64,000 bases of DNA from Intestinimonas butyriciproducens (GTDB lineage: Bacteria; Bacillota; Clostridia; Oscillospirales; Butyricicoccaceae). Below the pieces are notes generated by a model, which worked only from the letters and a program-made list of their open reading frames with translations, had not been told where the DNA came from and ran no database searches. A program made the translations under genes and the position numbers. Positions 32,156 to 64,000 of this stretch are shown here, piece by piece. Each line of letters opens with the position of its first letter. Position 1 is the stretch's first letter. The stretch is taken from positions 1 through 64,000 of the forward strand of contig NZ_JACJKW010000004.1 in NCBI RefSeq assembly GCF_016901775.1, read 5' to 3'.

Positions 32156-32323
32156 ATCCCTCTCCTCTTTACTTGCTTTTTTCATTTTTCTCTTTATCAG
32201 ATCAAATAATTCATATTATTATATCAAATAATGCATATGTTTTCCAATCGTTTTTTCAATAAAATGAATAAAAGACAAAAATTCCCCCTTTTCCCTAAAA
32301 AATGCAAGGAAAAGGGGGGGCTA

Positions 32324-33567: not shown

Positions 33568-33653
33568 ACTGTCCTTCCTTGTCTTTCAAAAACAGCGGCG
33601 GCACGGAAAACCCGCGCCGCCGGAACCAATCATTTCTGCTTGTCCTTTGCCTT

Positions 33654-34955: not shown

Positions 34956-35161
34956 TCTCCCGGCAGTGTATTCCAGTTGCTCCCTTGCAAGATGCCGCCT
35001 GGGGCGGCAAGAAGAACGACAGAGCTGCGTTCATCAAAAATTTACTGTTGTTTTATATATTTTACCACAGTCCGCTCAGAATGAAAAACAAAATCCCGCA
35101 GATTTTCACCTAAGTTTTCACCAATCCCCAGGGCCGATCCTTGTGCACAATGATCAAAGGC

Positions 35162-35950: not shown

Positions 35951-35953
35951 GGC

Positions 35954-39009: not shown

Positions 39010-39021
39010 GGTTCCTTCCGC

Positions 39022-39711: not shown

Positions 39712-39727
39712 GGCTCTCTCCTTCTCT

Positions 39728-40228
39728 TTACAGGCTCAAAAGTCCCTTTTCCCGGGCCAGAAGAAGGGCGCTCAGGGTCTTGGCATCCCCGATCTCTCCA
39801 CGCCCCAGGGCATCTTTCAGCCGGGAAAGCTCCCACAGCTCCCCCTCCAGAAATTCCCCTTCGTCGGGCCTGGCCTGGGAAAGGGTCAGGTCTTCCGCCC
39901 AATAAAGGTACATTTTTTCCTCCAGCACATCGGGAGAAGAACAGTAGACCCCCAGCTCTTCCAGCTTTCCGGCGGAAAGTCCGGTTTCCTCCAAAAGCTC
40001 CCGCCGGGCGCACTCTTTCGGGTCCTCCCCCGCTTCCAGCTTTCCCGCCGGAAGCTCCACACATTCCTTCCCCTGGGCATAACGGTACTGGCGCACCAGG
40101 GGAATCTTTCCCTGGTACTGGCACAAAACCGCCACCGCACCCCGATGGCGGCAGACTTCTCCCTCTTCCCCGGGGTATACATCCACCAGAACGCCCCGGA
40201 ACAAAGGCTCGTTCTTCTTGTTTTCCAT
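39728..40228 (-). CDS. NUDIX hydrolase (ADP-ribose pyrophosphatase-like).
   Basis: Intact Nudix box GKLEAGEDPKECARRELLEETG. Start at 40228 (GGAGGA RBS). Confidence 0.75.
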   Translation of the reverse strand: MENKKNEPLFRGVLVDVYPGEEGEVCRHRGAVAVLCQYQGKIPLVRQYRYAQGKECVELPAGKLEAGEDPKECARRELLEETGLSAGKLEELGVYCSSPDVLEEKMYLYWAEDLTLSQARPDEGEFLEGELWELSRLKDALGRGEIGDAKTLSALLLAREKGLLSL

Positions 40229-51890: not shown

Positions 51891-52025
51891 TGTCGAAAAA
51901 GTGGCCTGGGCCACTTTTTCGAGTTTTGCAAGAAGCTGCATGCACGCCTGTGGCGCACACTGGCTTCTTGATCGGTGCAAAAAGCCACGCACAGGTCGCG
52001 GCTTTTTGCAGATTGATGAAAGATA
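51891..52025 (-). repeat. Terminator-associated intergenic repeat, copy E (short form, inverted).
   Basis: Reverse complement matches copies C and D end to end. Confidence 0.8.
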
Positions 52026-52072
52026 AAACAAAAGAATTTCTCACATGATATGTTTTTTCATCGTCTACGCAA

Positions 52073-52101
52073 TAAAAAAGAGCCTTTCGGCTCTTTTTTT
52101 A
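52073..52101. terminator. Second copy of terminator AAAAAAGAGCCtttcGGCTCTTTTTTT (tatD side).
   Basis: Direct duplicate of 51859-51887. Confidence 0.75.
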
Positions 52102-52106
52102 TTGCG

Positions 52107-52874
52107 TTATGGGATATTGAAAAATCGCTTGCCGTTTTCCAGGGTGATCCGGGCCGCTTCCTCCGTGGAGATGCCCTTGATGTTGCCGATGCACTCGGCC
52201 ACCTTCCACACCTTGGAGGAATCGTTCCGCTCCCGGCGGAAGGGCTCCGGGGTGAGGTAGGGGGAGTCGGTTTCGATCATCACCCGGTCCAGGGGCAGCC
52301 ACTGGAGCACTTCCAGAGCCCGGCGGGCGTTTTTATAGGTGATGACTCCAGTGAAGGAGAGCATCCAGCCCATCTTCACCAAAGTTTTGGCATCCTCCAG
52401 ACTGCCGGAATAGCAGTGGAACACACCTCGCACCCCCGGGTGCTCCCGCACCATCTCCATGCTGTCTCCATGGGCTTCCCGGTCGTGCACCACCACCGGA
52501 AGCCCCAGCTTTTCCGCCAGCTCCATCTGGAGGGCAAAGACTTTCTTCTGGTGCTCTTTGGGGGGATTGTCCTCCCAGTGATAGTCCAGGCCGATCTCTC
52601 CGATGGCCTTGACTTTTTCGTCCCGGGCCAGCTTTTCCAGCTCGTCCATCTGGCTCTCTTCAAAATCCCCGCAGTCCGAAGGGTGAATGCCCACGGCGGC
52701 ATAGACAAAGGGGAAGGTATGGGCCAGTTCCACCGCCTTGCGGGAGGAGGGCAGGTCACAGCCCGGGTTGACGATCAGATCCACGCCCTGCTGGGGCAAA
52801 CCGGCCAGCACCTCCAGCCGGTCTTTGTTGAAGGCTCCCGAGTCGTAGTGGGCGTGGGTATCAAAGACCCCCAT
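52107..52874 (-). CDS. tatD: TatD-family metal-dependent hydrolase (DNase).
   Basis: N-terminal HAHxD and typical TatD motifs. Its start overlaps the metG stop. Confidence 0.85.
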   Translation of the reverse strand: MGVFDTHAHYDSGAFNKDRLEVLAGLPQQGVDLIVNPGCDLPSSRKAVELAHTFPFVYAAVGIHPSDCGDFEESQMDELEKLARDEKVKAIGEIGLDYHWEDNPPKEHQKKVFALQMELAEKLGLPVVVHDREAHGDSMEMVREHPGVRGVFHCYSGSLEDAKTLVKMGWMLSFTGVITYKNARRALEVLQWLPLDRVMIETDSPYLTPEPFRRERNDSSKVWKVAECIGNIKGISTEEAARITLENGKRFFNIP

Positions 52875-54823
52875 CAGGACAAATGGGACCCGGGCACGGC
52901 GCCGTCGGCCAGCACCACCCGCACATCGTTTTCCCCGCAGGTGGCCGACAGGATCATGCCGCAGCTGTCCAGCCCCATCATCTTCCGGGGAGCCAGGTTG
53001 CTCACCACCACCACATTGTGGCCGATCAGGTCCTCCGGCTCATACCACTGGGCGATGCCCGAAAGCACCTGACGCTTTTCATAGCCCAGATCCAGCTCAA
53101 AGCGCAGCAGTTTCTTGCTCTTCTTCACCTTTTCACAGTGGAGCACCTTGGCCACCGTCAGTTCCACCTTGGCAAAATCGTCATAGACGATGGTGTCCTT
53201 GGGTTCGTGAGGGGGCAGGGGCTCCTTCTTTTCCTCCTGGGGGGCATGGGCGGCCTGGAAGGCAGCCACTTCCTCCAGCTTCTTTTCGGCATCCATCCGG
53301 GCGAAGAGGATCTCGGCCTGGCCCACCTGATGGCCTTCCGGCAGCGCGCCGAAGGAGCTGAGACTGTCAAAGTCGGTTTTATCGGTGTTCAGCTGAGCGT
53401 AGATCTTCTGAGCGGCGTCGGGAAGGAAGGCCTCCAGCAGCACGGCGCCGAAGCGGATGCTTTCCAGCAGGTTATAGAGCACGGTGTCCAGTCTTGCCTT
53501 TTTGCTCTCGTCCTTGCCCAGGACCCAGGGCATGGTCTCGTCGATATACTTGTTGGCCCGGCGGAAGATGGCAAAGACCTCGTCCATGGCGTCGCCCACC
53601 TTCAGCTGGTCCATGGCCCGCCGCACCTTTTCGGGGGCCTCCAGGCACACCTGCTTCAGTTCCTCGTCCACCGGCTCGCACACATCATGGCTGCCCATGA
53701 CGCCGTTCTGGTACCGGTGGCACATGGTCACCGTCCGGTTGACCAGGTTGCCCAGGATGTTGGCCAGGTCGCTGTTGGTGCGCTCGATGAGCAGCTCATA
53801 GGTGATGGTGCCGTCGTTGGCAAAGGGCATCTCGTGGAGCAGGTAATAGCGCACAGCGTCCACACCGAACAGCTCTACCAGGTGATCGGCATAGATCACA
53901 TTGCCCTTGGATTTGCTCATTTTGCCCTCGCCCACCAGCAGCCAGGGATGGCCGAAGACCTGGCGGGGCAGCTCCTCGCCCAGGGCCATAAGGAAGATGG
54001 GCCAATAAATGGTGTGGAAACGGAGAATGTCCTTGCCGATGAGATGCACATCGGCAGGCCAGAACTTTTTGTATTCCTCTGTGCTCTCCCCTTCCGGCTC
54101 ATAGCCCAGGAAGGTGATATAGTTGGTCAGAGCATCCAGCCACACATAGACCACATGGCCCGGGTCAAACTCCACCGGGATGCCCCAGCTGAAGGAGGTG
54201 CGGGAAACGCACAGATCCTGAAGGCCGGGCTTGAGGAAATTGTTGACCATCTCATTTTTCCGGGATTCCGGCTGGATGAACTCCGGATGGTCTTCGATAT
54301 ATTGCATCAGCTTGTCGGCGTATTTGCTCATGCGGAAGAAATAGGCTTCCTCCTTGGCCTTCTGCACCGGGGCGCCGCAATCGGGGCATTTGCCGTCTTT
54401 CAGCTGGCTTTCGGTGAAGAAGGACTCGCAGGGGGTGCAATACCAGCCCTCGTAGCTTCCTTTATAGATATCGCCCTGGTCATACAGACGCTTGAAGATC
54501 TGCTGGACCTTCTTTTCGTGCATGGGATCGGTGGTGCGGATAAACCGGTCATAGGAGGTGTGGAGCACATCCCAGTTGCGGCGCACTTCGGCGGCCATCT
54601 CGTCCACGAAGGCCTGGGGGGTCATGCCGGCCTTTTCGGCCTTCTCCTGGATCTTCTGGCCGTGCTCGTCGGTGCCCGTCTGAAAGAGCACATCGTAGCC
54701 GTCCTTCCGCTTATAGCGGGCGATGGCGTCGGCCAGCACGATCTCATAGGTGTTGCCCACATGGGGTTTGCCCGAGGTGTAGGCGATGGCCGTGGTCAAA
54801 TAGTACTTTCCTTTGCTGTTCAT
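52874..54823 (-). CDS. metG: Methionine--tRNA ligase (with C-terminal tRNA-binding domain).
   Basis: HVGN (HIGH-class) and KMSKS motifs. Zn knuckle CPDCG. 649 aa. GGAGG RBS. Confidence 0.9.
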   Translation of the reverse strand: MNSKGKYYLTTAIAYTSGKPHVGNTYEIVLADAIARYKRKDGYDVLFQTGTDEHGQKIQEKAEKAGMTPQAFVDEMAAEVRRNWDVLHTSYDRFIRTTDPMHEKKVQQIFKRLYDQGDIYKGSYEGWYCTPCESFFTESQLKDGKCPDCGAPVQKAKEEAYFFRMSKYADKLMQYIEDHPEFIQPESRKNEMVNNFLKPGLQDLCVSRTSFSWGIPVEFDPGHVVYVWLDALTNYITFLGYEPEGESTEEYKKFWPADVHLIGKDILRFHTIYWPIFLMALGEELPRQVFGHPWLLVGEGKMSKSKGNVIYADHLVELFGVDAVRYYLLHEMPFANDGTITYELLIERTNSDLANILGNLVNRTVTMCHRYQNGVMGSHDVCEPVDEELKQVCLEAPEKVRRAMDQLKVGDAMDEVFAIFRRANKYIDETMPWVLGKDESKKARLDTVLYNLLESIRFGAVLLEAFLPDAAQKIYAQLNTDKTDFDSLSSFGALPEGHQVGQAEILFARMDAEKKLEEVAAFQAAHAPQEEKKEPLPPHEPKDTIVYDDFAKVELTVAKVLHCEKVKKSKKLLRFELDLGYEKRQVLSGIAQWYEPEDLIGHNVVVVSNLAPRKMMGLDSCGMILSATCGENDVRVVLADGAVPGSHLS

Positions 54824-54940
54824 TTTCTTTCCTCCATGGCGCCTTTGCTTCTTCCGGCGAATGAGCCGGCGCGCCGGATATAGTGTGGGTCAAAGGCCTA
54901 CGCAGCCTTTGCCTGCGCATTTTATCATACCATCCCCCAT

Positions 54941-54969
54941 AAAAAAACACAAGCGGCGTGACGCCGCTG
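54941..54969 (-). terminator. Intrinsic terminator inside the metG upstream region (AGCGGCGucacGCCGCU plus U-run), followed by a candidate promoter TTGTGT ... TATGAT.
   Basis: Read on the minus strand. Could be the end of the upstream gene or a leader attenuator. Confidence 0.5.
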
Positions 54970-54970
54970 T

Positions 54971-55024
54971 CATACTTTCTTTGCCTTGGTGAACACAACC
55001 GTCCCTGGCTCTATTGCACAGCGG
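54971..55024. repeat. 54-bp direct repeat, unit 1 (CATACTTTCTTTGCCTTGGTGAACACAACCGTCCCTGGCTCTATTGCACAGCGG).
   Basis: 48 of 54 positions identical to unit 2 at 55066-55119. Between them lies the palindrome GCGGGGgCGCCCCGC. Confidence 0.75.
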
Positions 55025-55065
55025 GGGAGCGCAGTACGGGTGCAGCGTCAGCGGGGCGCCCCCGC

Positions 55066-55119
55066 GGCCATACTTTCTTGGCCCTGGTGAACACAACTGT
55101 CCCTGGCTCTACCGCACAG
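55066..55119. repeat. 54-bp direct repeat, unit 2; overlaps the last codons of the upstream hypothetical gene.
   Basis: See unit 1. Confidence 0.75.
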
Positions 55120-55633
55120 CGGAAACGCCTTTTTGGCCGATGGCTTTTCCCAAGGCAAGCAGGCTTTCCAGAAGCTCCGGGTTACGGCTCTGATAAAAGT
55201 CCTCCCATTCCGTTTCCCACTGGCCCTCTGTGTTTTTCAGCTTCCACACCTTCACCTGTGGCCGCTCCGCCCCGATCAAGGACAGCGCCCAGGCGTCCTT
55301 TCCCTGGCGCATCACAAAGCGAGTAGGGAAATACATCTGTCCCACTTCGGTCATCCGATGGGGCCAGGTGCCCAAAGAAAGATACAGATCCAGCAGATCG
55401 TCATACCGAAGATCTTCTGCCAGCGCCCGGATGGTGCCCTGGGCCCCTTTCCCCGAAACCGGCACGGTGATTCCTCTGTCCACATAGACATACTGAGTTT
55501 CCTGGAAAGGGGAAAGCCCCAGCTTTTCCGTGGGGCCGCCTTCTGCCCAGGAAAACAGGCCTACCACTCCCAGAATTATCGCTGTCAGCAGTACAAGACG
55601 CACAAAAAACCGTTTTCCAATATAGCGGATCAT
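55109..55633 (-). CDS. Hypothetical membrane-anchored protein (174 aa).
   Basis: N-terminal TM segment. No family recognised. Confidence 0.55.
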   Translation of the reverse strand: MIRYIGKRFFVRLVLLTAIILGVVGLFSWAEGGPTEKLGLSPFQETQYVYVDRGITVPVSGKGAQGTIRALAEDLRYDDLLDLYLSLGTWPHRMTEVGQMYFPTRFVMRQGKDAWALSLIGAERPQVKVWKLKNTEGQWETEWEDFYQSRNPELLESLLALGKAIGQKGVSAVR

Positions 55634-55678
55634 TTGAAAACCCTCTTTTTCTCTGTTTCCGATCTTTGCTTCATCTTT

Positions 55679-56146
55679 TCAGGGAAGTTGGTCTTCTCCA
55701 TAACACTGCCGGTATTCCTCCGCAAAGTGTTTCCAGGCCTCCCACTGGGGATTTCCCGGCTGCTTTTGTTCCTCCGGCACGCCCCGCAAAAGTAGCAGCA
55801 ACAACTGAAGCCGGGAACTGTTGCTATAAGTATAGCCGGTTTCCTGCCCAATCAGGGCATACACCTGCTCATCAAAGGGACAGGCCCCTTCCGGAAGCCG
55901 GCTCATCTCCAGCGGCACCGCATCCCGCTCCTCTTCATAAAAAGGGGCGCTTTGCTCTCCCTGGGGAAGACGATAGGCCAAAAAGGCGCCCTCTTTCTTC
56001 CCACAGGCGAAAAAGCTGTTGTCTTCTTGGGTGCTGCGGAAAAATCCGTCCAGACTACCGTAATCCACCAGCTTCGCTCCCCAGGTTTCTTCCAACCAGC
56101 GGGCCAGTTCCTGCGGCGAATGTTCTCTGTTATTCACAGGCATCAT
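55679..56146 (-). CDS. Hypothetical protein (about 155 aa).
   Basis: ATG at 56146 or 56143 after AAGAAGGGG. The ORF track begins upstream at 56254. No family recognised. Confidence 0.5.
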   Translation of the reverse strand: MMPVNNREHSPQELARWLEETWGAKLVDYGSLDGFFRSTQEDNSFFACGKKEGAFLAYRLPQGEQSAPFYEEERDAVPLEMSRLPEGACPFDEQVYALIGQETGYTYSNSSRLQLLLLLLRGVPEEQKQPGNPQWEAWKHFAEEYRQCYGEDQLP

Positions 56147-56304
56147 CCCCTTCTTTGTTGCCTCTATTCTATCTGCTTTCTCTCTTTTTGCAAATATCAG
56201 GATATCCCCCAAGCAGAGATGGAAAACCATTCCTTTTCTTCCATCGACATCCATTTTTATCCGGTGCTATACTTATTATAATATAAAAAAGAGAGGTGTC
56301 CCTG

Positions 56305-56866
56305 ATGAAAAAACGCATCCTTTCCCTCCTTCTGATCCTGTGCCTTTCTCTGGGACTTCTGCCCGCCGGCGCTCTGGCCGCAGGCACCCAGACCGTCAAA
56401 ACGGCTGTGACGGTGGATTACGGCGCCGCCATAGAGGCGGTGGAATATCTCAACCACCACCGCCGACGGCAAGACTTCCGGCTCCTGCCGTGTCACCGTA
56501 TCCAACCCCTCCCAGGGCTCCCACAGCTTCACCGATGTGTCCCAAAGCGATTATTTCTACGACGCCGTCATGTGGTGTGCCGATGAAGGGCTCCTGGATG
56601 AGGCCGGCAATACGGTGGGGGTCTACACCCCTTGCACCCGTGCAGAAATGGTGTACCACCTGTGAAAACTGGCCGGTTCTCCCGAGCCCATCACCTCCAT
56701 CAACGCCTTCTCCCACCTGTCCTCCCTGTCCACTCAGGAGCGAAAAGCCATTCGCCGGGCCGTGGAGGAAAACATCGCCAACGGCACCAGCATCACCACC
56801 TTCTCTCCCAGCATGGTGCTCACCCGGGCCCAGGTATTCACCTTCCTCTACCGGTACTACAACTGA
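56305..56866 (+). pseudogene. Disrupted gene for a secreted SLH-like-domain protein: signal peptide, then a frameshift near 56440-56460, then an in-frame TGA at 56663.
   Basis: MKKRILSLLLILCLSLGLLPAGALA continues in another frame as ...SHSFTDVSQSDYFYDAVMWCADEGLLDEAGNTVGVYTPCTRAEMVYHL*KLAGSPEPITS...YRYYN*. Confidence 0.5.
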
Positions 56867-56880
56867 TCTTTCCCATCCCC

Positions 56881-56911
56881 GAAGCTGCGGCTTCGGGGAT
56901 TTTTTTGTCTG
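56881..56911 (+). terminator. Rho-independent terminator (CCCCGAAGCtgcgGCTTCGGGG plus TTTTTTT).
   Basis: Read directly. Confidence 0.75.
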
Positions 56912-56967
56912 GAAAAGGTGAAAACGGCAGCAAATTCTTAGAAAAGTCTGAACTTTTGACCAAAGGA

Positions 56968-56996
56968 TTGGCATCTTCCCTGTTTTCTGGTATAAT
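56968..56996 (+). promoter_or_regulatory. Promoter for the LCP gene (TTGGCA, 17-nt spacer, TATAAT).
   Basis: Motif match. About 125-nt 5' UTR. Confidence 0.55.
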
Positions 56997-57121
56997 AGCG
57001 GGGCTTACGAAAAAAACAGCGGCTTTCCGGCAACTTTTTGCCGGAGAAATCCGTCTAAAAAAAGACAGTCCGGAAGCAGGCTCCCATGAGCCGCTTGCCA
57101 AAGGAGGCTTTTTTCAGAAAA

Positions 57122-58177
57122 ATGGCACAAGGAAAACGAGTAGTACGAAAAAAACGCCGTCGTCGCCATCGGGGCCGGGTCCTTTTCTGCTGGCTGCTGA
57201 TTTTGCTGGGCCTGGGTGGTGTGGGTTTTTATTTTTGGAGAATGATGACTTCCTATGATTACAATCCCTTAGACGACAGCGATCTGGGCATTGTGCAGCC
57301 CCAGCAGCCGGTGAGCGACAAAATCACAAACATCGCCCTGTTCGGCGTGGACTCCCGAGCCGGGGAAAATTCCCGGTCCGACGCCATGATCATCCTGTCA
57401 GTAGATCCCAAGCGTGGGAAAGTCAAGATGTCCTCCCTGATGCGTGACGCCTATGTGGAGATCGACGATCACGGCATGACCAAGCTATGCCACGCCTATG
57501 CTTATGGCGGGCCGGAGCTGGCCATCAAGACCATCAACCAGAATTTCCAAATGGACATCAGCGAATATGCCACCGTCAACTTTAACCAGATGGCCGATAT
57601 CATCGATGCCATCGGCGGTGTGGAACTGGAGGTCTCCCAGGCCGAAATGGACGAAGCCAACGACGCACTGTGGGAGTATTGTGTGTTCAACGACCTGATC
57701 TGGGATGATTACAAATTCACCGAACCGGGGCTTCAGACCCTGAACGGTCCTCAGGCCGTGGCTTACGGGCGCATCCGCAAAGGGGCCACCGGCGGCGATG
57801 CGGCCCGCACCAGCCGCCAGCAGGAGATTCTGGAAAAGATGATGGACAAGGTGATGGATATGAGCATTGTGAAATATCCCTCCCTGGCCGCAAAACTCCT
57901 GCCCATGGTGGAAACCAGCCTTTCCTCCAAAGAGATTCTTTCTCTGGCCACCCAGGTGCTTTCCGGCGGCAAGCCGGACATCGAACGGGCTACCTTCCCC
58001 TGCGAGGGTGAATGGTCGGAAAAACGCACCTCCAGCGGTCTTTCCGTGGTGGCCTACGAAGATGCATTGGCTGTAAAGCGCCTGCACGCATTCATCTATG
58101 ACGATCTGTCCATCGAGGAACAGAAAGCCCAGGAGCAATCCTCCGGCAGCACTGACACCGATACCGATACGCCATAA
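57122..58177 (+). CDS. LytR-CpsA-Psr (LCP) family cell-envelope phosphotransferase.
   Basis: N-terminal basic region plus TM segment. LCP core SDAMIILSVDP...KLCHAYAYGG. The start could instead be 57086. Confidence 0.8.
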   Translation: MAQGKRVVRKKRRRRHRGRVLFCWLLILLGLGGVGFYFWRMMTSYDYNPLDDSDLGIVQPQQPVSDKITNIALFGVDSRAGENSRSDAMIILSVDPKRGKVKMSSLMRDAYVEIDDHGMTKLCHAYAYGGPELAIKTINQNFQMDISEYATVNFNQMADIIDAIGGVELEVSQAEMDEANDALWEYCVFNDLIWDDYKFTEPGLQTLNGPQAVAYGRIRKGATGGDAARTSRQQEILEKMMDKVMDMSIVKYPSLAAKLLPMVETSLSSKEILSLATQVLSGGKPDIERATFPCEGEWSEKRTSSGLSVVAYEDALAVKRLHAFIYDDLSIEEQKAQEQSSGSTDTDTDTP

Positions 58178-58353
58178 CATTCAACCATACTTTTTATCGC
58201 GATCTGTGAATACGGCCAGAACTTCCGTAACAAGCGGTCAGACTGTATGTGCTTCCACATCGGCCCTAATGGGAGATCTGAGCCGCTTCCAGTTGGCGAT
58301 TGACCGCATCAAAAATAAGAGCATCGATTTGTGATCAATGGAGGAAAAAGTCA

Positions 58354-58554
58354 ATGGACTATTTATGGCTGCTGGCTTTGCTGATTTTAGGGGGCTGTAT
58401 GCTATGTTATCCAAAAACATTATGGAAGATAGAGAATCTATTAACGGTCAAGAATGGTGAGCCATCCGAATTATATTTATTTTTGATGCGGATCGGCGGC
58501 GTATTTTTTATTCTTTGTTCGCTCGGCATAACCGTGTATCTATTGATGAAATAA
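58354..58554 (+). CDS. Small hypothetical membrane protein (66 aa) in a low-GC region.
   Basis: GGAGG RBS 9 nt before the ATG. Two hydrophobic helices. Confidence 0.45.
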   Translation: MDYLWLLALLILGGCMLCYPKTLWKIENLLTVKNGEPSELYLFLMRIGGVFFILCSLGITVYLLMK

Positions 58555-59013
58555 ACCGCCCTTATCGGCATTCTGCTCTGGCCTTGTATCCTATCGTATC
58601 TAAAAAGCTCTAATAAAAAGCCGCTGTAAAGCATTGGATGGTTTTACAGCGGCTTTTTATATCCATCCCCATGCCACCATACATGGAAAAATCTGTGAAC
58701 ACACAGAAAAAGACAGTTTTTGAAAAATCTTTCTATCGTTACTTGGAAAAAAGCAGAGGAGATGCTATCAAAAGGGAACTATCTTACCACTGTTCCCTAT
58801 AAAATCTCGGAACTGGAATATATCCGCAAAGTAGAGCTTGTTTATCGCAGCGAAACATACGATACATACTTCATGCTTTATTACTGCTTCTATGTAGAAT
58901 TGCCTGAGCAAGAAGGGAAAAATGGACTGAAAACCTATGGCACATATTGTGTACCAGCGGTAAGATCTGATCATATTTCCAACATTCCAACATCGGCAGG
59001 AAACTTTAACCAG

Positions 59014-59059
59014 CCAAAACAAAACGCCGCAAGAAGTATCTTGCGGCGTTTTGTTTTGG
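59014..59059. terminator. 20-bp-arm perfect inverted repeat (CCAAAACAAAACGCCGCAAG aagtat CTTGCGGCGTTTTGTTTTGG); bidirectional terminator-like.
   Basis: Read directly. Abuts the tRNA-like fragment. Confidence 0.7.
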
Positions 59060-59086
59060 CACCCCCAATAGGAATCGAACCTATAA
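59057..59086 (-). other. tRNA 3'-end-like fragment (T-arm ATAGG-TTCGATT-CCTAT, acceptor 3' strand TGGGGGT, discriminator G, CCA) with no 5' half; candidate att core or integration scar.
   Basis: The reverse complement reads ...AGTTATAGGTTCGATTCCTATTGGGGGTGCCA. No matching 5' acceptor, D-arm or anticodon arm upstream. Confidence 0.5.
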
Positions 59087-59241
59087 CTGCCCCTTAGGAG
59101 TGAGGTTGAGCCAATGAACCGCCGTGTTCCACAGTATCCTTACACATTTTATTGTGAAATACTAACACAAAACGGTCTTTGATGCAAGTGTCTCTTTGTG
59201 CATATTTTGCATCATGGCGTGTCGTCGGGATGAAAAACTGC

Positions 59242-59288
59242 TGATTAGCAAAGAATTAGCACACCCTTGATTAGCAGAAAATTAGCAG
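59242..59288 (+). repeat. Iteron-like direct repeats: 2x (TGATTAGCA-RAGAATTAGCA), giving four ATTAGCA cores; upstream of the ICE HTH gene.
   Basis: Read directly. Confidence 0.6.
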
Positions 59289-59382
59289 AAATCATCCCAC
59301 TTGCAATGTGTTTCTTCATGTAACTATGCGCTTTTTCAAGCCATCTTGCTTGTGGGGGAACTACCTTGAAAGGAGCTTCCTC

Positions 59383-60519
59383 ATGTTAGGCTATCAAGTT
59401 GAAATCAAGCAGCTCGTGGATTACCCCCGTTGCCGAGTACATCGGGAATTTATCCAAACGCTCATCGCAGACCGGAGCCTCCGAACCAACAACGGATGCT
59501 CCGGCCTTTTTTATTATGCCGTCCTCTGCTCCTATGCCAACTTCCGCACCTCCTACCGGCGGATCGATGGCATCACCTACACGATTTATCCTGGCGAATG
59601 GGTCTGCACATTTAAGGAACTGGCAGAATGGCTGCGCCTCCGAACAAAGCGGCGCATCTTTGACGTCCTGGACAGGCTTCAGGATGACCACCTGATCGAC
59701 TACAAGATTTTGGGGCGGGACAAGCTGGTGCGCTATCAGATCAAGGACTGGCGGCGGCATAACACTGTCCTGGACTATAACTGCCCCTGCCAAAAGGACA
59801 CAGGCTTCTACTTCCTCCCCGTGTCAACGGCCACCGACCTGATCAGCGTCGGCAGATGCTCAGAAATGGACATCCTGCTGGATCTCTGGATCTCAGCGGT
59901 CTACAATGATGAACGGGTACAGGGTTCCTTTACCGGGCCGGTAGCCTATTTCCGAAACGGGAGCGGGAAGCCGCTGGTGTCCTATGCGGATCTCGCCGCC
60001 CGCTGGGGGATCTCGAAGGCGACGGTTGGCCGGGTGCTGAAGAAGCTCTCCCGGCTGGGCCATATTACACTGGTGACCTTCCCAGGGCGCCACGGGACAG
60101 CCATCTACTTGAAAAACTATCTCTCCACCATGTTTCAAATCTCCGATGTCATGGTGGACAAGGCGGAGGTAGCCCTCTCGCTGAACATCAAGTTTCTTCC
60201 GCCCGACACGGAGCCAGAGGCGGCGGAGCGTTTCGCCTGCGGCCCAACGAGACTGCTTTTCGTTTCAAAAGCGTTCATGGACAATGTGGCGCAGAATGTC
60301 CTGCAACTCCTTGAGCGGCAAGGGGTTGCGTGCTCTCAATGCCCCCGTTGCTCCTATCAGTTATATCCATTATCCGACGATGGAAAGGGTGAGTGTATGG
60401 GAGAGCAGGAACAGCCGCATCGGTTCCGCATGGAGGTTTTCTGCGGCCCGGGTACTCCCCGCTATGTATTTGTCCTGTCCCTTGGCATCCTGCAGGAAGG
60501 GGTGACGGAGCATGGCTAA
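59383..60519 (+). CDS. ICE-associated HTH-domain protein with a C-terminal Cys cluster (replication-initiator / regulator-like).
   Basis: RBS AAAGGAG. HTH motif LAARWGISKATVGRVLKKLSRLG. Cys cluster CSQCPRC. Confidence 0.6.
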   Translation: MLGYQVEIKQLVDYPRCRVHREFIQTLIADRSLRTNNGCSGLFYYAVLCSYANFRTSYRRIDGITYTIYPGEWVCTFKELAEWLRLRTKRRIFDVLDRLQDDHLIDYKILGRDKLVRYQIKDWRRHNTVLDYNCPCQKDTGFYFLPVSTATDLISVGRCSEMDILLDLWISAVYNDERVQGSFTGPVAYFRNGSGKPLVSYADLAARWGISKATVGRVLKKLSRLGHITLVTFPGRHGTAIYLKNYLSTMFQISDVMVDKAEVALSLNIKFLPPDTEPEAAERFACGPTRLLFVSKAFMDNVAQNVLQLLERQGVACSQCPRCSYQLYPLSDDGKGECMGEQEQPHRFRMEVFCGPGTPRYVFVLSLGILQEGVTEHG

Positions 60520-61057
60520 AAAGCCCGTTGAGAAAAAGGTGGAAGACGATCCCCGCTACCACGACACCTGGCGCCTGTTGAAAAAGTACCGGGATGTGGT
60601 GTGGAGCCTGGAACTGTCCGTCCAGCAGTTGAAAAAGCAGTTTGAAGTGGAGTATGGGAGCAGTATCGAGGATTTTCTGGAGTCTGTCTACCTGGCCGGC
60701 GCAGATCTGGGCGGCACGGAGATTGAAAACCACGCCCGCTGCATTGAGCGGAGCCACAAGATGCTTTCCCTGCTGAACCATTCTGTGGATCTTCTTCGCA
60801 CCCGGCATAAAAACGGCGAGGAGTACTACTGGATCTTGTACTTCACCTATCTCTCCCCCCAGCAACTGAAAAATGCGGAAGAAATCATTGAGCAGCTCCG
60901 GCCTCATATGCAGGACATCAGTTTTCCCACCTACTACCGCAAGCGCAAAAAGGCGGTGGAGGCCCTCAGTTCCATTCTCTGGGGATATACCTCCCAGGAG
61001 TGCCTGCTGATCTTGGAGCAGTTTTACCCGCCGGAGGAAGGTGCGGCCCGAAAGTAG
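60512..61057 (+). CDS. Hypothetical ICE protein (181 aa).
   Basis: Overlaps the upstream gene by 8 nt. No family recognised. Confidence 0.55.
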   Translation: MAKKPVEKKVEDDPRYHDTWRLLKKYRDVVWSLELSVQQLKKQFEVEYGSSIEDFLESVYLAGADLGGTEIENHARCIERSHKMLSLLNHSVDLLRTRHKNGEEYYWILYFTYLSPQQLKNAEEIIEQLRPHMQDISFPTYYRKRKKAVEALSSILWGYTSQECLLILEQFYPPEEGAARK

Positions 61058-61314
61058 AATCTGTCCTGTTTCCCTCTGCTGATAGAGAATTGATACAGTT
61101 TTGAGAGTGAATTGAGAGGGTTTTGTTATTGTGCGGATAATCTTGATGTGGTACACTGGTCATGCTCAAAACTGTCCCTAAAACTGAAAACATCCGCAAA
61201 AGGCGCTTGCAGCGTCTTTTTTTCTGCCCTTTTGCGGGATCAAGACAGCACCTGGACCATCAGGTGCTGTCTTTGTTTTCAGCGGGAAAACTCGTCAAAG
61301 GAGGTCTTTTTCAG

Positions 61315-61701
61315 TTGAAACCGGAAAAAACGCCGCCCAATCAGCCGAGGCGAAGGGGCCCGAACTTCGCCCGTATCCTCTACATGGGTTATCTCTGTGT
61401 CTGTCTGAGCGTATGCTTTGCCTCTCCCGCATCAGCGGCCACCATTTGGGAGAAAGCGAGCGAGATCATGCAGGATGTCTACACGCAGATCCTCACCATC
61501 TCGACTATTGCGGCCATCGTCACCGCATCCGTGGCGCTCTTGATGATGAACTTCTCCCGCTCCGGCCGAACAGTCGAGGAGTCCCGGGCATGGCTCAAGC
61601 GGATCATCATCACCTGGGTCATCCTCAACGGCCTCGGATTCATTATGGCGTATGTTACGCCCTTCTTCCAGGGGGGCCAGTGGACGCCGTCCAGTCCCTA
61701 A
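61315..61701 (+). CDS. Small exported two-helix membrane protein; conjugative pilin-like (TrbC/VirB2-type topology).
   Basis: TTG start with AAGGAGG RBS. Signal-peptide-like N-terminus followed by two hydrophobic helices. Confidence 0.45.
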   Translation: MKPEKTPPNQPRRRGPNFARILYMGYLCVCLSVCFASPASAATIWEKASEIMQDVYTQILTISTIAAIVTASVALLMMNFSRSGRTVEESRAWLKRIIITWVILNGLGFIMAYVTPFFQGGQWTPSSP

Positions 61702-61707
61702 CCGCCT

Positions 61708-62418
61708 ATGGGAATTTTAGATGGCATTGTGGCCTGGATCGCGGAGCAAGTCATGCACGGCCTGGACTTGATCAATACATCAGTTTTGGGCGCTCTTGGC
61801 TGTGATATGTCCGTCTTTCTCCGCTATTTCCCTGCCGCAGAAACCATGTATGAGGTCTTTGTGGCTCTTGCCATCGGCCTGATCCTGCTGATCTGGATTT
61901 GGAACCTGGTCAAGAACTTCGGGCTTGGCCTTGGCACTGAAGCGGAAGATCCCGTGAAACTGAGCATACGGTCGGTCCTGTTCATTCTGCTGGCCTATTA
62001 TGCCAATGAAATTGTGGATCTCGTTCTCGGCATCGGCGGAACACCCTATGACTGGATCATGAATTCGGCTCTGCCAAGTCTGGATTTCGCGAGCTTTAAC
62101 TCGGTCATGCTTACCATCATCGGGGTCTGTGCAAGCGGAGCGGTGACGATCATCGTGCTGATTTTGGTGCTGATCCTCGCCTGGAACTATCTGAAATTAC
62201 TGTTTGAGGCGGCGGAGCGGTATGTTCTGCTGGGCATCCTGGTCTATACGGCGCCCGTAGCATTTGCGATGGGGTCCTCCCAGGCTACCTCCAATATTTT
62301 CAGGAGCTGGTGCCGGATGTTCGGCGGCCAGATTTTTCTGCTCCTGATGAACGCATGGTGCCTGCGGCTCTTTGTTAGCATGGTAGGCTCCTTCATTTCC
62401 AATCCGCTTTCCATTTGA
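61708..62418 (+). CDS. VirB6/TrbL-like polytopic conjugal transfer membrane protein.
   Basis: 236 aa, 5-6 TM segments. Translationally coupled to the pilin-like gene. Confidence 0.55.
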   Translation: MGILDGIVAWIAEQVMHGLDLINTSVLGALGCDMSVFLRYFPAAETMYEVFVALAIGLILLIWIWNLVKNFGLGLGTEAEDPVKLSIRSVLFILLAYYANEIVDLVLGIGGTPYDWIMNSALPSLDFASFNSVMLTIIGVCASGAVTIIVLILVLILAWNYLKLLFEAAERYVLLGILVYTAPVAFAMGSSQATSNIFRSWCRMFGGQIFLLLMNAWCLRLFVSMVGSFISNPLSI

Positions 62419-62426
62419 CAGGGGGA

Positions 62427-63578
62427 ATGAAAACGAAAAAGAGCATTCAATTTACAAGCATCCTTGTGCTTGCGGTAATTTTTTCTGTGTCCCTCGCGTT
62501 GCCGGCCTCCGCGATCAGTGAGGCCGATGTGCAGGCACAGGTAGACGCTGTCGGCCGTGAAACCGTGACCGGGAACGTGCTGATCTGGTTTTTGTGCGCC
62601 ATCGGCTTTCTCAAAGCGGCCCAAAAGATCGACAGCTTTATGGCCAGCCTGGGCGTCAATGTGGGACACACCGGCGGCTCCATGCTGGCAGAGGCGCTGA
62701 TCGCGGCCAGGGGTGTGGGGACGATTGCCGGCGCGATGGGTCACTCTTTGGGCGCTGCCGGCGGACATCGGGGCAGTTCCGGCGGAAACTCCGCCGCTGC
62801 ATCGGCAGGCGGCTTTTTCAAGGGCGGCCTGATCGGTATGGCCCGGCGCAAGGCTACCAGCGATGCAGTGAGGAGCGCGACATCCAGCACATCGGCCGTC
62901 CGCTCTGAACAGGTCAAGTCCACATCTGAGCAAACCGCCAGCCATTCCGCCCATACCAGCGAGCAGGCCGGTGTCAGGCAGACTGCCACCCATGAGGGAC
63001 ATCAGACTGTCCAGCAAACCGCGGCGAAGACGGCGGAGCATACCAGCCATACCGCCTCAGAAGTGACCCGTACACAACATCATACTGCCTCTTCCTTCCA
63101 GGGCGTCGGGTTGGGCGGCGCGATTTTTGCCAAGTCCTTACTGAAGGGCGGAGATTTCGCCAATGACGTGATCGGCACCGTTGCCCGGGGCGACATCCGC
63201 TCCGCAGGCTCCATCACCGGCGATCTTGCGGCGCAGTCCCTCCAGTCGTATCTGGGTTATACGGCGCTGGGGGCGGACGCCAAGGACACGCCGGCGTTCA
63301 CAAATGTGGAGATCGGCGGTGGCCGGATCACTGGGACCGAGACGGCTCCCGGCAGTTCGGAGGGCGTCGCTTTCGGGATGTACCATGCGGATCAATATAC
63401 CGAGCCGAAGGGGGACTTTACAAAAGTCCATGCCGCTGACGGCTCCCTTTGGTACAAGCAGTACGCCCAGGACGCTGTGGAGCGCAAGCCCTACAATGCG
63501 CCGGATGGCACAGTCGCTTACCAGGAGAGCATCGTCAAGAGGCTGCCTGATCCGCCCAAGCGTAAGGACCGACTGTAA
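62427..63578 (+). CDS. Secreted ICE protein with a Gly/Ser/Thr/His-rich low-complexity centre.
   Basis: Signal peptide MKTKKSIQFTSILVLAVIFSVSLALPASA. Confidence 0.5.
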   Translation: MKTKKSIQFTSILVLAVIFSVSLALPASAISEADVQAQVDAVGRETVTGNVLIWFLCAIGFLKAAQKIDSFMASLGVNVGHTGGSMLAEALIAARGVGTIAGAMGHSLGAAGGHRGSSGGNSAAASAGGFFKGGLIGMARRKATSDAVRSATSSTSAVRSEQVKSTSEQTASHSAHTSEQAGVRQTATHEGHQTVQQTAAKTAEHTSHTASEVTRTQHHTASSFQGVGLGGAIFAKSLLKGGDFANDVIGTVARGDIRSAGSITGDLAAQSLQSYLGYTALGADAKDTPAFTNVEIGGGRITGTETAPGSSEGVAFGMYHADQYTEPKGDFTKVHAADGSLWYKQYAQDAVERKPYNAPDGTVAYQESIVKRLPDPPKRKDRL

Positions 63579-63589
63579 TTAGGAGGTCT

Positions 63590-64000
63590 ATGAAACACGA
63601 AGAACGGGACATCTACACGATCCCACCCAATTTTATCGAGGGCGGCACCCTGCTGGGCGGTATGTTCAGGACCCGGAATGTGGTGGAGGCCGGCATCCTC
63701 GCCGTGGCTATGGGCGGTCCGGTCCTTTCTCTGCACTTTTCCCTTACCGTCCGCATCATCATTCTCTGTTTCACCGCCCTGCCTCTGGCGCTTGTGGCCC
63801 TCATCGGCATCAACGGCAGCAGCCTGTCCTCATTTTTCATCCAGTTGTTTAGTTTCCTCCGAAATCGGAGGGTGCTGTCGGCAGACGAACCGACGGACAC
63901 ACCGAAGAAAAAGCCGATCCTCCCAAGTTGGGCCAGACGCAAGCCGCCAAAGCCGGCGGCCGAGGACGAACAGGAGCGGCCCAAAAGCCGCAATCGCCTT
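63590..64000 (+). CDS. PrgI/VirB3-like small membrane protein (5' part; continues beyond the window).
   Basis: AGGAGG RBS. MKHEERDIYTIPPNFIEGGTLLGGMFRTRNVVEAG. Two TM segments. No stop codon before the window end. Confidence 0.5.
   Translation, partial: MKHEERDIYTIPPNFIEGGTLLGGMFRTRNVVEAGILAVAMGGPVLSLHFSLTVRIIILCFTALPLALVALIGINGSSLSSFFIQLFSFLRNRRVLSADEPTDTPKKKPILPSWARRKPPKPAAEDEQERPKSRNRL

What the first reader, a model, noticed from the sequence alone, without database searches (positions are those of the whole stretch)
59057..64000. Start of an integrated conjugative element with a compact T4SS-like gene set
Downstream of the tRNA-like fragment lies an HTH/Cys-cluster protein preceded by iteron-like repeats. 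It is followed, in tightly coupled order, by a hypothetical protein, a pilin-like two-helix protein (TTG start, strong RBS), a VirB6/TrbL-like polytopic protein, a secreted low-complexity protein and a PrgI/VirB3-like protein that runs off the window. This ordering (VirB2-like, VirB6-like, secreted, VirB3-like) is typical of Firmicute MPF modules. A VirB4 ATPase, a coupling protein, a relaxase and an integrase are expected downstream.
Basis: partly seen in the sequence, partly recalled or inferred. Interest (0 to 1): 0.6.

Follow-up and report, generated by a model that had tools for sequence, protein, structure and literature searches.

The report
Left end of a gut-bacterial conjugative element
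This is the left end of a mobile element inserted into a tRNA-Arg gene of a gut Clostridia-type bacterium; it carries a DNA-transfer (type IV secretion) machine and belongs to a common but undescribed family in which no known DNA-nicking enzyme (relaxase) can be found.

Summary
The element starts at 59101. Closely related strains without it carry an intact tRNA-Arg(CCU) gene exactly there, and homology with the window stops in the anticodon loop. The window keeps only the 3' half of the tRNA (59057-59100, minus strand).

All six genes are real and syntenic in about 80 genomes, mostly Oscillospiraceae. The pilin-like, VirB6-like and VirB3-like calls rest on consistent but sub-threshold profile hits plus membrane topology.

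Corrections:
- The "PrgI-like protein" is the N-terminal domain of a 981-aa VirB3-VirB4 fusion.
- The T4SS operon is not coupled to the first two genes. It has its own promoter and a conserved leader RNA with two tandem terminators, supported by covariation.

The same contig continues with VirB4, DUF5697, DUF6100, a 377-aa winged-helix protein, a VirD4-type coupling protein (CD1115 family), an S1-domain protein and adhesion genes.

A tyrosine integrase was seen only in a 54-kb relative (Vescimonas fastidiosa). No relaxase homologue was found anywhere. I could not reach the right end of this copy.

Verdict: a real ICE of an uncharacterised family, distinct from Tn1549, and of moderate interest.

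The parts
59057..59100 (-). Displaced 3' half of the host tRNA-Arg(CCU) gene (anticodon loop to CCA end); host side of the left junction (attL).
   Evidence: Identical to the 3' half of the intact tRNA-Arg(CCT) in ICE-free relatives (L099:10704-10778). Other copies of the element abut different tRNA-Arg 3' halves.
59094..59101 (.). Junction or crossover region CTTAGGAG (anticodon loop CTCCTAAG on the tRNA strand). Element DNA starts at about 59101.
   Evidence: Window and empty site are identical up to 59100 and diverge after it. All copies share CTTAGGAG followed by TGAGGTTGAGCC.
59242..59287 (+). Four ATTAGCA sites, arranged as two 20-nt direct repeats, 95-140 nt upstream of the first gene. 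Binding-site array (iterons or operator) for a DNA-binding protein, probably the 378-aa product.
   Evidence: Relatives have 10-11-nt-phased repeats at the same place but with a different sequence (AAATGGTGT in Vescimonas and L034; ATTAGCA again in L025).
59383..60519 (+). 378-aa winged-helix protein with conserved Cys residues (CxxC at 317/320, C354). Regulator or replication-initiator-like protein.
   Evidence: MarR_2 33.5 bits. Databases name it 'MarR family regulator'. Alignment shows 70% mean column identity. Seven of the ten weak PHROG hits are DnaD-like or replication-initiator families, E from 1e-4 to 5e-2; the other three are families of unknown function. Only the wHTH matches solved structures.
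60512..61057 (+). 181-aa conserved protein, translationally coupled to the previous gene. Probable transcription factor.
   Evidence: Syntenic in relatives at 59-77% identity. phrog_1558 E=6.6e-11 (unknown function); phrog_36 'transcriptional regulator' E=5e-4 over residues 107-175. No Pfam hit.
61029..61088 (.). Cargo insertion hot spot between the regulatory pair and the T4SS operon. Empty in this copy.
   Evidence: Other copies carry here about 5 kb with an AAA_21 ATPase plus RloB (L002, L003, L005, L094) or a DUF3644 gene (L006, L008). Homology breaks at 61029 and resumes at 61088.
61146..61176 (+). Conserved promoter-like extended -10 (TGTGGTACACT) followed by the conserved box ATGCTCAAAACTG (inferred transcript start of the T4SS operon).
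   Evidence: Conserved columns in the alignment of 15 relatives. The assignment as promoter is inference. The simple scan marks a different, unverified site at 61112-61141.
61194..61280 (+). Structured leader RNA. A 10-bp helix (61194-61203 with 61228-61237) encloses a small hairpin plus U-tract. A 13-bp hairpin (61242-61254 with 61261-61273) plus T-rich tract follows. Two tandem intrinsic-terminator-like elements ahead of the pilin gene.
   Evidence: z = -3.8 against shuffles. In 15 relatives 92.7% of cells are paired against 41-51% for slid controls; 17 of 27 pairs show compensatory changes; 0/500 shuffles reach the observed values; many G-U pairs point to RNA on the + strand. No Rfam family matches.
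61315..61701 (+). VirB2/TrbC-like pilin candidate (128 aa, TTG start, signal peptide ending ASA, two hydrophobic helices).
   Evidence: Best Pfam hit TrbC/VirB2, 16.4 bits against a cut-off of 27.9. NF045849 pilin-like, E=0.0045. 17 family members hit TrbC at E<=0.1, best 1.9e-5; I attribute these to the 40 pilin homologues in the mixed set scanned. Topology.
61708..62418 (+). VirB6/TrbL-like polytopic membrane protein (236 aa).
   Evidence: TrbL 19.2 bits against a cut-off of 25.9. 13 TrbL hits and 7 TrbL_4 hits in the mixed set, best E=1.4e-7; I attribute them to the 40 VirB6-like homologues, and the two counts may overlap. 5-6 hydrophobic segments. The exact protein is listed in 319 blocks of the assembly collection.
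62427..63578 (+). 383-aa secreted or membrane-anchored protein with a low-complexity centre and a conserved C-terminal domain. T4SS-associated; role unknown.
   Evidence: Signal peptide and composition. No family hit. Syntenic but variable in relatives, sometimes split or followed by a C39-like peptidase.
63590..64000 (+). N-terminal VirB3/PrgI-like membrane domain (two helices) of a 981-aa VirB3-VirB4 fusion ATPase that continues to window-equivalent 66535.
   Evidence: Single 981-aa ORF in the 100%-identical contig. Only Pfam hit is PrgI, 13.6 bits against a cut-off of 27. 24 PrgI hits in the mixed set, best 6.7e-4; I attribute them to the 42 N-terminal fragments. C-terminal part: P-loop_TraG 73.6 bits; NF045971 E=5e-76. 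RefSeq names the Vescimonas homologue 'PrgI family protein'.

Best explanation
The segment from 59101 to beyond 64000 is the left end of an integrative and conjugative element inserted into the anticodon loop of a chromosomal tRNA-Arg(CCU) gene.

Shown:
- The insertion point, by comparison with an empty site.
- Mobility among hosts.
- A conserved module in this order: wHTH protein, 181-aa protein, promoter and leader with two terminators, VirB2-like pilin, VirB6-like protein, secreted protein, VirB3-VirB4 fusion ATPase, DUF5697, DUF6100, 377-aa wHTH protein, VirD4-type coupling protein, S1-domain protein, secreted proteins, sortase and a thioester/SpaA adhesin. The part up to the first secreted protein after the S1-domain protein is read from this genome's own contig. 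The sortase and adhesin are read from a 98%-identical copy.

Inferred:
- A tyrosine integrase at the far end excises the element and re-forms the tRNA.
- The two left-end proteins control expression, possibly also replication, through the ATTAGCA repeat array. They would control the T4SS operon promoter, whose transcripts must pass two leader terminators.
- The pilin-like, VirB6-like and VirB3-VirB4 proteins and the coupling protein form a Gram-positive-type mating channel. The sortase-anchored adhesin holds the mating pair.
- DNA is nicked and piloted by a relaxase of an unrecognised type. The most likely source is the DUF5697-DUF6100-377-aa operon next to the coupling protein. That operon is preceded by an intergenic array of ATACG repeats, which is a candidate oriT.
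For: - Empty site and junction. L099, L101, L102 and L108 share the TatD-MetRS-LytR-DUF6199 flank at 98% identity and have an intact tRNA-Arg(CCT). Window homology ends at 59100.
- Independent junctions with different host tRNA-Arg 3' halves: window, L001, L095, L096, L097.
- Near-identical copies at 96-99% in many metagenomes. The exact VirB6-like protein is listed in 319 blocks of the collection.
- Same-genome continuation (L098 and L109 are 100% identical to the window): 981-aa ATPase, DUF5697, DUF6100, 377 aa, 664-aa coupling protein, 475-aa S1 protein.
- Coupling protein: NF045973 414.8 bits against a cut-off of 250; T4SS-DNA_transf 161 bits.
- VirB4: NF045971 E=5e-76, NF045975 E=1e-67, P-loop_TraG 73.6 bits.
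- Synteny across the 80 GTDB loci fetched.
- Complete relative in Vescimonas fastidiosa (about 54 kb) ends with a tyrosine integrase and carries SSB, DUF932, sigma factors, an N6-methylase and ParM. A plasmid-borne version exists in Subdoligranulum variabile.
- Family-wide sub-threshold hits to TrbC, TrbL and PrgI.
- Leader covariation.
- ATACG array enriched about 10- to 50-fold in most relatives.
Against: - No relaxase homologue in the core, among the hypothetical proteins of the complete relative at E<=1, or in its RefSeq annotation. MOB-suite types both plasmid records as non-mobilizable.
- VirB4 scores below the CD1110 equivalog cut-off (256 against 325).
- The pilin, VirB6 and VirB3 assignments are all below the curated Pfam cut-offs for the window proteins themselves.
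- The right end, the integrase and attR of this particular copy were not seen.
- No VirB1-like hydrolase or VirB8-like protein was recognised in this copy.
- Transfer has not been demonstrated.
Confidence: 0.85

Rival explanations
1. A mobile genomic island whose T4SS does something other than conjugate its own DNA, such as protein secretion, contact-dependent killing or DNA uptake and release. It would therefore truly lack a relaxase.
For: No relaxase homologue in the core or in the complete relative. Relaxase-less T4SS clusters of monoderm type are reported in Patescibacteria (PMC12102498).
Against: - A VirD4-type coupling protein of a conjugation family scores above its curated cut-off.
- Near-identical copies occur in at least five host tRNA contexts, which needs horizontal transfer.
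- Relatives carry genes typical of conjugative leading regions: SSB, DUF932 and methylase.
- The same module is found on a circular plasmid.
Confidence: 0.08
2. A defective remnant or integrated plasmid fragment. It would be a T4SS gene cluster left behind after the integrase and relaxase were lost, and no longer mobile.
For: The right end of this copy was not seen. No relaxase was found.
Against: - All ORFs are intact and identical in gene order to about 80 relatives.
- 96-99% nucleotide identity between copies in different hosts argues for recent transfer.
- The precise junction in the anticodon loop is conserved.
- The lack of a relaxase is family-wide, not a defect of this copy.
Confidence: 0.05
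3. This concerns the left-end pair only. The 378-aa protein is a replication initiator and the ATTAGCA repeats are true iterons (an oriV for the excised element), rather than a transcriptional regulator with its operator.
For: - Seven of the ten PHROG hits are to DnaD-like, O-like or replication-initiation families; the other three are families of unknown function.
- By eye the sequence shows two winged-helix-like segments. One PHROG hit falls in the first (residues 44-127), the others in the second (residues 166-256).
- Phased direct repeats lie just upstream and change sequence together with the protein in relatives.
- The family is unusually well conserved, at 70% column identity.
- In the Subdoligranulum plasmid the gene lies about 1.6 kb from ORFs that I read by eye as ParA/ParB-like.
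Against: - The PHROG E-values are weak (1e-4 to 5e-2) and mostly cover the HTH.
- Pfam and NCBI call it MarR-type.
- No match to solved Rep structures.
- No AT-rich unwinding element or DnaA boxes were tested.
Confidence: 0.4

Closest known systems
Tn1549 / CTn4-type ICEs of Clostridia and Enterococcus (the family that contains all ICEs described in Faecalibacterium, PMC12084326)
   Same: - Integrated in Clostridia chromosomes, often in tRNA genes.
- VirD4-type coupling protein of the same NCBIfam family (CD1115; 414.8 bits against a cut-off of 250).
- Related VirB4 (CD1110 model, E=5e-76).
- TrbL-like VirB6 and PrgI-like VirB3.
- Cargo such as defence genes and methylases.
   Different: - None of the Tn1549 backbone markers was found: MOBP7 relaxase (PF03432), MobC, PcfB/DUF3801, Maff2, DUF4315, DUF4366, topoisomerase III, NlpC/P60 hydrolase (against the table).
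- VirB3 is fused to VirB4.
- VirB4 scores below the family cut-off.
- The gene order differs.
- The backbone has its own genes (DUF5697, DUF6100, 377-aa wHTH, S1-domain protein).
Mycoplasma ICEs (Mbov_0395 pilin-like and Mbov_0397 VirB4 families)
   Same: The second-best VirB4 model is NF045975 (E=1e-67). It aligns from query residue 169 to model position 108, so the Mycoplasma protein also has an N-terminal extension. The pilin-like protein's best NCBIfam hit is the Mbov_0395 pilin-like family. From my own knowledge, not tested here: these ICEs also lack a canonical relaxase.
   Different: Scores are far below the cut-offs (228 against 590; 16.6 against 40). The hosts differ. From my own knowledge: Mycoplasma ICEs integrate with a DDE transposase and not at tRNA genes.
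VirB3-VirB4 fusion ATPases of some conjugative systems (for example Campylobacter plasmids, as cited in PMC12102498)
   Same: A single polypeptide with an N-terminal two-helix VirB3-like membrane anchor and a C-terminal VirB4 ATPase.
   Different: The known examples cited are from Gram-negative systems. Here the fusion is the rule in a monoderm family; all 42 long (>900-aa) homologues whose N-termini I extracted start with this domain.
Terminator and antitermination control of Gram-positive conjugation operons (pLS20 conAn, Tn916; PMC8191782, PMC11658703, PMC13401043)
   Same: Intrinsic terminators placed in the leader at the start of a long conjugation operon, with a small regulator gene nearby.
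   Different: The 181-aa protein has no hit to the ConAn1 domain (PF17362). The leader matches no Rfam family. Whether read-through is regulated is untested.

Membership tests
Integrative and conjugative element (ICE) | Inserted at a specific chromosomal site with a definable junction; an empty site exists in relatives | tested here: met
   Intact tRNA-Arg(CCT) in four ICE-free contigs with a 98%-identical flank. Homology ends at 59100. At least five junctions with different host tRNA halves. The right junction was not seen.
Integrative and conjugative element (ICE) | VirB4-family ATPase | tested here: met
   981-aa ORF in the same genome. On the 98-99%-identical L001 copy: P-loop_TraG 73.6 bits (cut-off 25.8), AAA_10 34.6 bits (cut-off 27.5), NF045971 E=5e-76.
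Integrative and conjugative element (ICE) | Type IV coupling protein | tested here: met
   664-aa gene in the same genome. NF045973 414.8 bits (cut-off 250) and PF02534 161 bits.
Integrative and conjugative element (ICE) | Relaxase (any MOB class) | tested here: not met
   No relaxase family hit at E<=0.1 in the core proteins or at E<=1 in the hypothetical proteins of the complete relative. None in the RefSeq annotation. MOB-suite calls both records non-mobilizable. MOBscan and CONJscan profiles were not available.
Integrative and conjugative element (ICE) | Integrase or recombinase | tested here: inconclusive
The Vescimonas relative has a tyrosine recombinase at its far end (PF00589, 94.9 bits), but it is not inserted at a tRNA gene.
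Tn1549 / CTn4 ICE family | MOBP7 relaxase (PF03432) plus MobC, and the backbone PcfB, Maff2, DUF4315, DUF4366 and TopB | tested here: not met
   None found in window proteins, in the same-genome continuation, or in the annotated complete relative. Definition taken from PMC12084326.
Tn1549 / CTn4 ICE family | VirB4 of the CD1110 family and coupling protein of the CD1115 family | tested here: inconclusive
   The coupling protein passes (414.8 against 250). VirB4 does not (256.4 against 325).
TrbC/VirB2 pilin (PF04956) | Profile match; signal peptide followed by two hydrophobic helices; small size | tested here: inconclusive
   16.4 bits against a cut-off of 27.9, but it is the top hit. 17 hits at E<=0.1 in the mixed set, best 1.9e-5, attributed by me to the 40 pilin homologues. 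Topology fits.
TrbL/VirB6 (PF04610, PF19597) | Profile match; polytopic membrane protein with at least 5 TM segments, encoded next to the pilin and VirB4 | tested here: inconclusive
   19.2 bits against a cut-off of 25.9. 13 TrbL hits and 7 TrbL_4 hits in the mixed set, best 1.4e-7. 5-6 hydrophobic segments.
PrgI/VirB3 (PF12666) | Profile match; two TM helices; physically associated with VirB4 | tested here: inconclusive
   13.6 bits against a cut-off of 27; it is the only hit. 24 hits in the mixed set, best 6.7e-4, attributed by me to the 42 N-terminal fragments. Two hydrophobic helices. Fused to VirB4.
Iteron-type replicon | Phased direct repeats next to a gene for an initiator that binds them | tested here: inconclusive
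   Repeats are present and conserved in position. Similarity to initiators is weak only. Binding and replication are not testable here.
conAn bipartite antitermination system | ConAn1 protein with the pXO2-34 domain (PF17362) at the start of the conjugation operon | tested here: not met
   No Pfam hit for the 181-aa protein even at E<=5. Definition taken from PMC8191782.

The most novel reading that the evidence does not exclude
This widespread Oscillospiraceae ICE and plasmid family initiates transfer with a relaxase of a class not yet described. The relaxase would be encoded in the conserved DUF5697-DUF6100-377-aa operon directly upstream of, and overlapping, the coupling-protein gene. It would act on the ATACG-repeat intergenic region as oriT. 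DUF6100 carries an invariant RDYDN..K..D..DD motif that resembles the catalytic motif of RusA-type junction endonucleases. If that resemblance is real, the nicking enzyme would be a structure-specific nuclease and not an HUH, Rep_trans, HD or tyrosine-recombinase-type relaxase.
Probability: 0.3. Interest if true: 0.65.

Novelty: new variant of a known kind. Interest (0 to 1): 0.35.

Why it matters
ICE detection tools such as ICEscreen, MOB-suite and CONJscan-type logic require a recognised relaxase. A family that lacks one is scored "non-mobilizable" or missed altogether, as happened for the two plasmid records here.

This family is nonetheless common:
- 172 stretches encoding a relative of its coupling protein were found in the GTDB species representatives.
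- The exact VirB6-like protein is listed in 319 blocks of the assembly collection.
- It moves between species at 96-99% identity.
- It carries defence and stress cargo.

Recognising it would improve mobilome and gene-flow estimates for the human and animal gut. Identifying its relaxase would test whether the catalogue of MOB classes is complete. For the window itself, the practical result is a firm left boundary (59101) and an explanation for the split tRNA-Arg gene.

Tried and rejected
- Right end and integrase of this copy. Look-ups by exact protein reach only 10 kb each side. Window proteins took me to window-equivalent about 73.5 kb. Representatives P0001 and P0121 lie on other contigs. 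The right end was not reached.
- IMG/VR viral contigs searched with the S1-domain protein: no relative.
- DUF6100 as RusA. This remains a lead, not a result.
- DUF5697 as a paralogue of the 377-aa protein: only a weak winged-helix overlap.
- Standalone versus fused VirB3. A search of 1.8 billion representatives gave 890 hits at E<=0.001. Most of the 150 listed are shorter than the 981-aa full-length protein (many look like fragments), so the listed lengths do not settle the question.
- 181-aa protein as ConAn1: no PF17362 hit.
- "Hodor" megaplasmids (MOBH-like relaxase) and the C. sordellii cst locus (MobMG relaxase) were read and are different systems.
- att repeats of the Vescimonas element: none found by k-mer sharing, and no tRNA gene at its ends.
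- Prophage reading rejected: no phage structural genes. PHROG hits are limited to the two left-end proteins.

Full report
**What is in the sequence**

The region holds six co-oriented ORFs on the + strand.
- 59383-60519: 378 aa.
- 60512-61057: 181 aa, overlapping the previous gene by 8 nt.
- 61315-61701: 128 aa, with a TTG start 8 nt after GGAGG.
- 61708-62418: 236 aa.
- 62427-63578: 383 aa.
- 63590 onward: an ORF that runs off the window.

Upstream, 59057-59100 read on the minus strand is CTCCTAAGGGGCAGTTATAGGTTCGATTCCTATTGGGGGTGCCA. This is the anticodon loop (CCU), T arm and 3' end of a tRNA-Arg. ARAGORN does not call it because the 5' half is absent.

Two 20-nt direct repeats lie at 59242-59261 and 59268-59287 and are 18/20 identical. 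Together they give four ATTAGCA sites at 11/15/11-nt spacing. No other copy of GATTAGCA or AATTAGCA was found in the 64-kb window.

**The boundary is proven by an empty site**

A look-up of the small DUF6199 protein encoded just left of the fragment returned four useful contigs: L099, L101, L102 and L108. They share the window's left flank (TatD, MetRS, LytR-family and DUF6199 genes) at 98% identity but lack the element.

At the corresponding position they carry an intact tRNA-Arg(CCT) gene (L099:10704-10778, minus strand). MFS, FUR-like and rubrerythrin genes follow it. Homology with the window stops at 59100, inside the anticodon loop.

The same element sequence (...CTTAGGAG then TGAGGTTGAGCCAATGAACC...) follows the 3' halves of at least four other, different tRNA-Arg genes in other contigs: L001, L095, L096 and L097. 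Copies are 96-99% identical at the DNA level.

The element therefore integrates site-specifically in the anticodon loop of tRNA-Arg(CCU) and has moved recently among different hosts. The fragment in the window is the displaced host 3' half. An element-borne 3' half should complete the gene at the unseen right end; this is inference.

**What follows the window**

A Logan contig (SRR11789411_80, 36 kb) is 100% identical to window 51988-64000. It shows the continuation in the same genome.
- The last window ORF is the start of a 981-aa protein (window-equivalent 63590-66535).
- DUF5697 (173 aa) follows.
- DUF6100 (220 aa) follows.
- A 377-aa protein follows.
- A 664-aa coupling protein overlaps the end of the 377-aa gene.
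- A 475-aa S1-domain protein follows.
- A 387-aa secreted protein follows.

A 98%-identical copy (L094) continues with a sortase, a 274-aa protein and a 1736-aa thioester/SpaA-domain adhesin.

The 981-aa protein matches several families: P-loop_TraG (73.6 bits), AAA_10, the CD1110 VirB4 model (E=5e-76, below its 325-bit cut-off) and the Mycoplasma ICE VirB4 model (E=1e-67). The coupling protein passes the CD1115 VirD4 family cut-off (414.8 against 250).

**The T4SS assignments in the window**

For the window proteins the right families are the best hits, but all fall below the curated cut-offs.
- TrbC/VirB2 for the 128-aa protein: 16.4 bits.
- TrbL/VirB6 for the 236-aa protein: 19.2 bits.
- PrgI/VirB3 for the N-terminal 137 aa: 13.6 bits.

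I scanned a mixed set of 122 homologues from related loci, one protein at a time: 40 pilin-like, 40 VirB6-like and 42 N-terminal fragments. At E<=0.1 there were 17 TrbC hits (best 1.9e-5), 13 TrbL plus 7 TrbL_4 hits (best 1.4e-7) and 24 PrgI hits (best 6.7e-4). The tool reports counts for the whole set, so assigning each family to its subset is my inference.

The membrane topologies fit.
- The pilin-like protein has a signal peptide plus two helices.
- The VirB6-like protein has five to six hydrophobic segments.
- The VirB3-like part has two helices.

I accept these as distant homologues and mark formal membership as inconclusive. VirB3-VirB4 fusions are known in some conjugative systems (PMC12102498). 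Here the fusion is the family rule.

The 383-aa protein has a signal peptide, a low-complexity centre rich in Ala, Gly, Ser and Thr (with some His), and a conserved C-terminal domain. It has no family hit.

**The family**

A scan of one genome per species found 172 stretches encoding a relative of the coupling protein. The best 80 loci were fetched. They are mostly Oscillospiraceae and other gut Clostridia, and those long enough keep the same gene order from the 181-aa gene to the S1-domain gene.

Two annotated relatives exist.
- Vescimonas fastidiosa pMM35_02 carries a copy of about 54 kb. It ends with a tyrosine integrase (PF00589, 94.9 bits) and contains SSB, DUF932, sigma factors, a 1008-aa N6-methylase, ParM and oxidative-stress cargo.
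- A circular 247-kb Subdoligranulum variabile plasmid carries the same module, with ORFs that I read by eye as ParA/ParB-like nearby.

The adhesion module varies among relatives.
- The window type has a sortase plus a thioester adhesin.
- The Vescimonas copy has SpaA pili plus sortases.
- The Subdoligranulum and Enterocloster copies have ORFs that I read by eye as a Tad-like pilus.

**The missing relaxase**

No relaxase family is hit in any of the following.
- The core proteins at E<=0.1.
- Ten hypothetical proteins of the complete relative at E<=1.
- The RefSeq annotation.

MOB-suite types both plasmid records as non-mobilizable.

The obvious candidates are the three genes between VirB4 and the coupling protein. 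The 377-aa protein has 869 homologues, none with a Pfam domain or an informative name. Its AF2 model (pLDDT 77.6) matches solved structures only through an N-terminal MarR-like winged helix.

DUF6100 has invariant residues in an RDYDNLELKQ..D..DD motif. The motif resembles the RusA catalytic motif, but a profile comparison is weak.

The intergenic region before this operon carries an array of ATACG/CGTAT repeats. There are 4-9 copies against 0.2-0.5 expected in most relatives. I regard it as an oriT or operator candidate.

These points are inference. The shown fact is only that no known relaxase is detectable.

**Regulation**

The T4SS operon is separated from the first two genes by 257 nt. 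An alignment of 15 relatives shows four features in this gap.
- A conserved extended -10-like element lies at 61146-61156.
- A conserved box, ATGCTCAAAACTG, follows it.
- A 10-bp helix encloses a small hairpin with a U-tract.
- A 13-bp hairpin with a T-rich tail lies at 61242-61280.

Across the alignment, 92.7% of cells are paired against 41-51% in slid controls. Seventeen of 27 pairs carry compensatory changes, and 0/500 shuffles reach these values. Frequent G-U pairs indicate an RNA structure on the + strand. No Rfam family matches.

This looks like two tandem intrinsic terminators in the operon leader. Such an arrangement is a known theme in Gram-positive conjugation operons (PMC8191782, PMC11658703, PMC13401043). 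The 181-aa protein is not a ConAn1 homologue. Its best matches are a phage family of unknown function (E=6.6e-11) and a transcriptional-regulator family (E=5e-4).

The 378-aa protein is a well-conserved winged-helix protein with conserved cysteines. Seven of its ten weak PHROG hits are to replication-initiator or DnaD-like families. Relatives keep phased repeats upstream, with sequences that change along with the protein.

**Comparison with known systems**

The nearest described family is Tn1549/CTn4. It shares the coupling-protein family and has a related VirB4. Its defining relaxase, MobC, PcfB, Maff2, DUF4315, DUF4366 and TopB genes are absent here (one search compared).

A full-text search found no paper that mentions DUF5697 or DUF6100. 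I file the element as an ICE of an undescribed family, a new variant of a known kind.

**Limits**

The right end, the integrase and attR of this copy were not reached. Transfer is untested. The component assignments rest on remote homology plus context.

Noticed in passing
window 61146-61314: Conserved structured leader RNA ahead of the pilin gene. Two tandem terminator-like hairpins follow a conserved extended -10 and the box ATGCTCAAAACTG. Covariation is strong in 15 relatives (17 of 27 pairs compensatory; 92.7% paired against 41-51% in slid controls). No Rfam match.
   Followed up: partly
L098:14548-14678 (window-equivalent 66536-66664, same genome): The intergenic region between VirB4 and DUF5697 is packed with ATACG/CGTAT motifs in direct and inverted orientation. 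Counts are 4-9 copies against 0.2-0.5 expected, and the array is conserved in most relatives. Candidate oriT or operator.
   Followed up: partly
L109:14771-15433 (DUF6100, same genome): Invariant RDYDNLELKQ..D..DD motif reminiscent of the RusA Holliday-junction resolvase active site. The profile comparison with RusA is weak (probability 8.6%).
   Followed up: partly
window 61029-61088: Cargo insertion hot spot. Other copies of the element, 96-99% identical, carry about 5 kb here with an AAA_21 ATPase plus RloB (an abortive-infection-like pair, my reading from memory) or a DUF3644 gene. This copy is empty.
   Followed up: partly
L094:15672-21134; L090:29658-34327; L092 (oriented) 31227-40085; L088:16078-21719: The adhesion module downstream of the coupling protein is swapped between relatives. 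Variants are a sortase plus a 1736-aa thioester/SpaA adhesin, SpaA-type pili with two sortases, or ORFs that I read by eye as a Tad-like pilus.
   Followed up: no
L003:739-900: In one host the element follows an intact tRNA-Arg(CCT) gene plus a second, degenerate tRNA 3'-half-like stretch. This could be a remnant of an earlier or tandem integration.
   Followed up: no
window 59019-59056: Perfect hairpin AAAACAAAACGCCGCAAG...CTTGCGGCGTTTTGTTTT immediately 3' of the tRNA fragment. It is host sequence, also present at the empty site, and is probably a bidirectional terminator.
   Followed up: no
window 5366-6295: A 309-aa ORF, by eye alpha/beta-hydrolase-like, in a block of 38.7% G+C inside a genome of about 58% G+C. 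Probably a separately acquired gene.
   Followed up: no
window 58560-59056: Low-GC (43%) stretch between the DUF6199 gene and the tRNA fragment, with a 125-aa ORF that has no family hit. It is host DNA, because it is present at 98% identity in the ICE-free contigs.
   Followed up: partly
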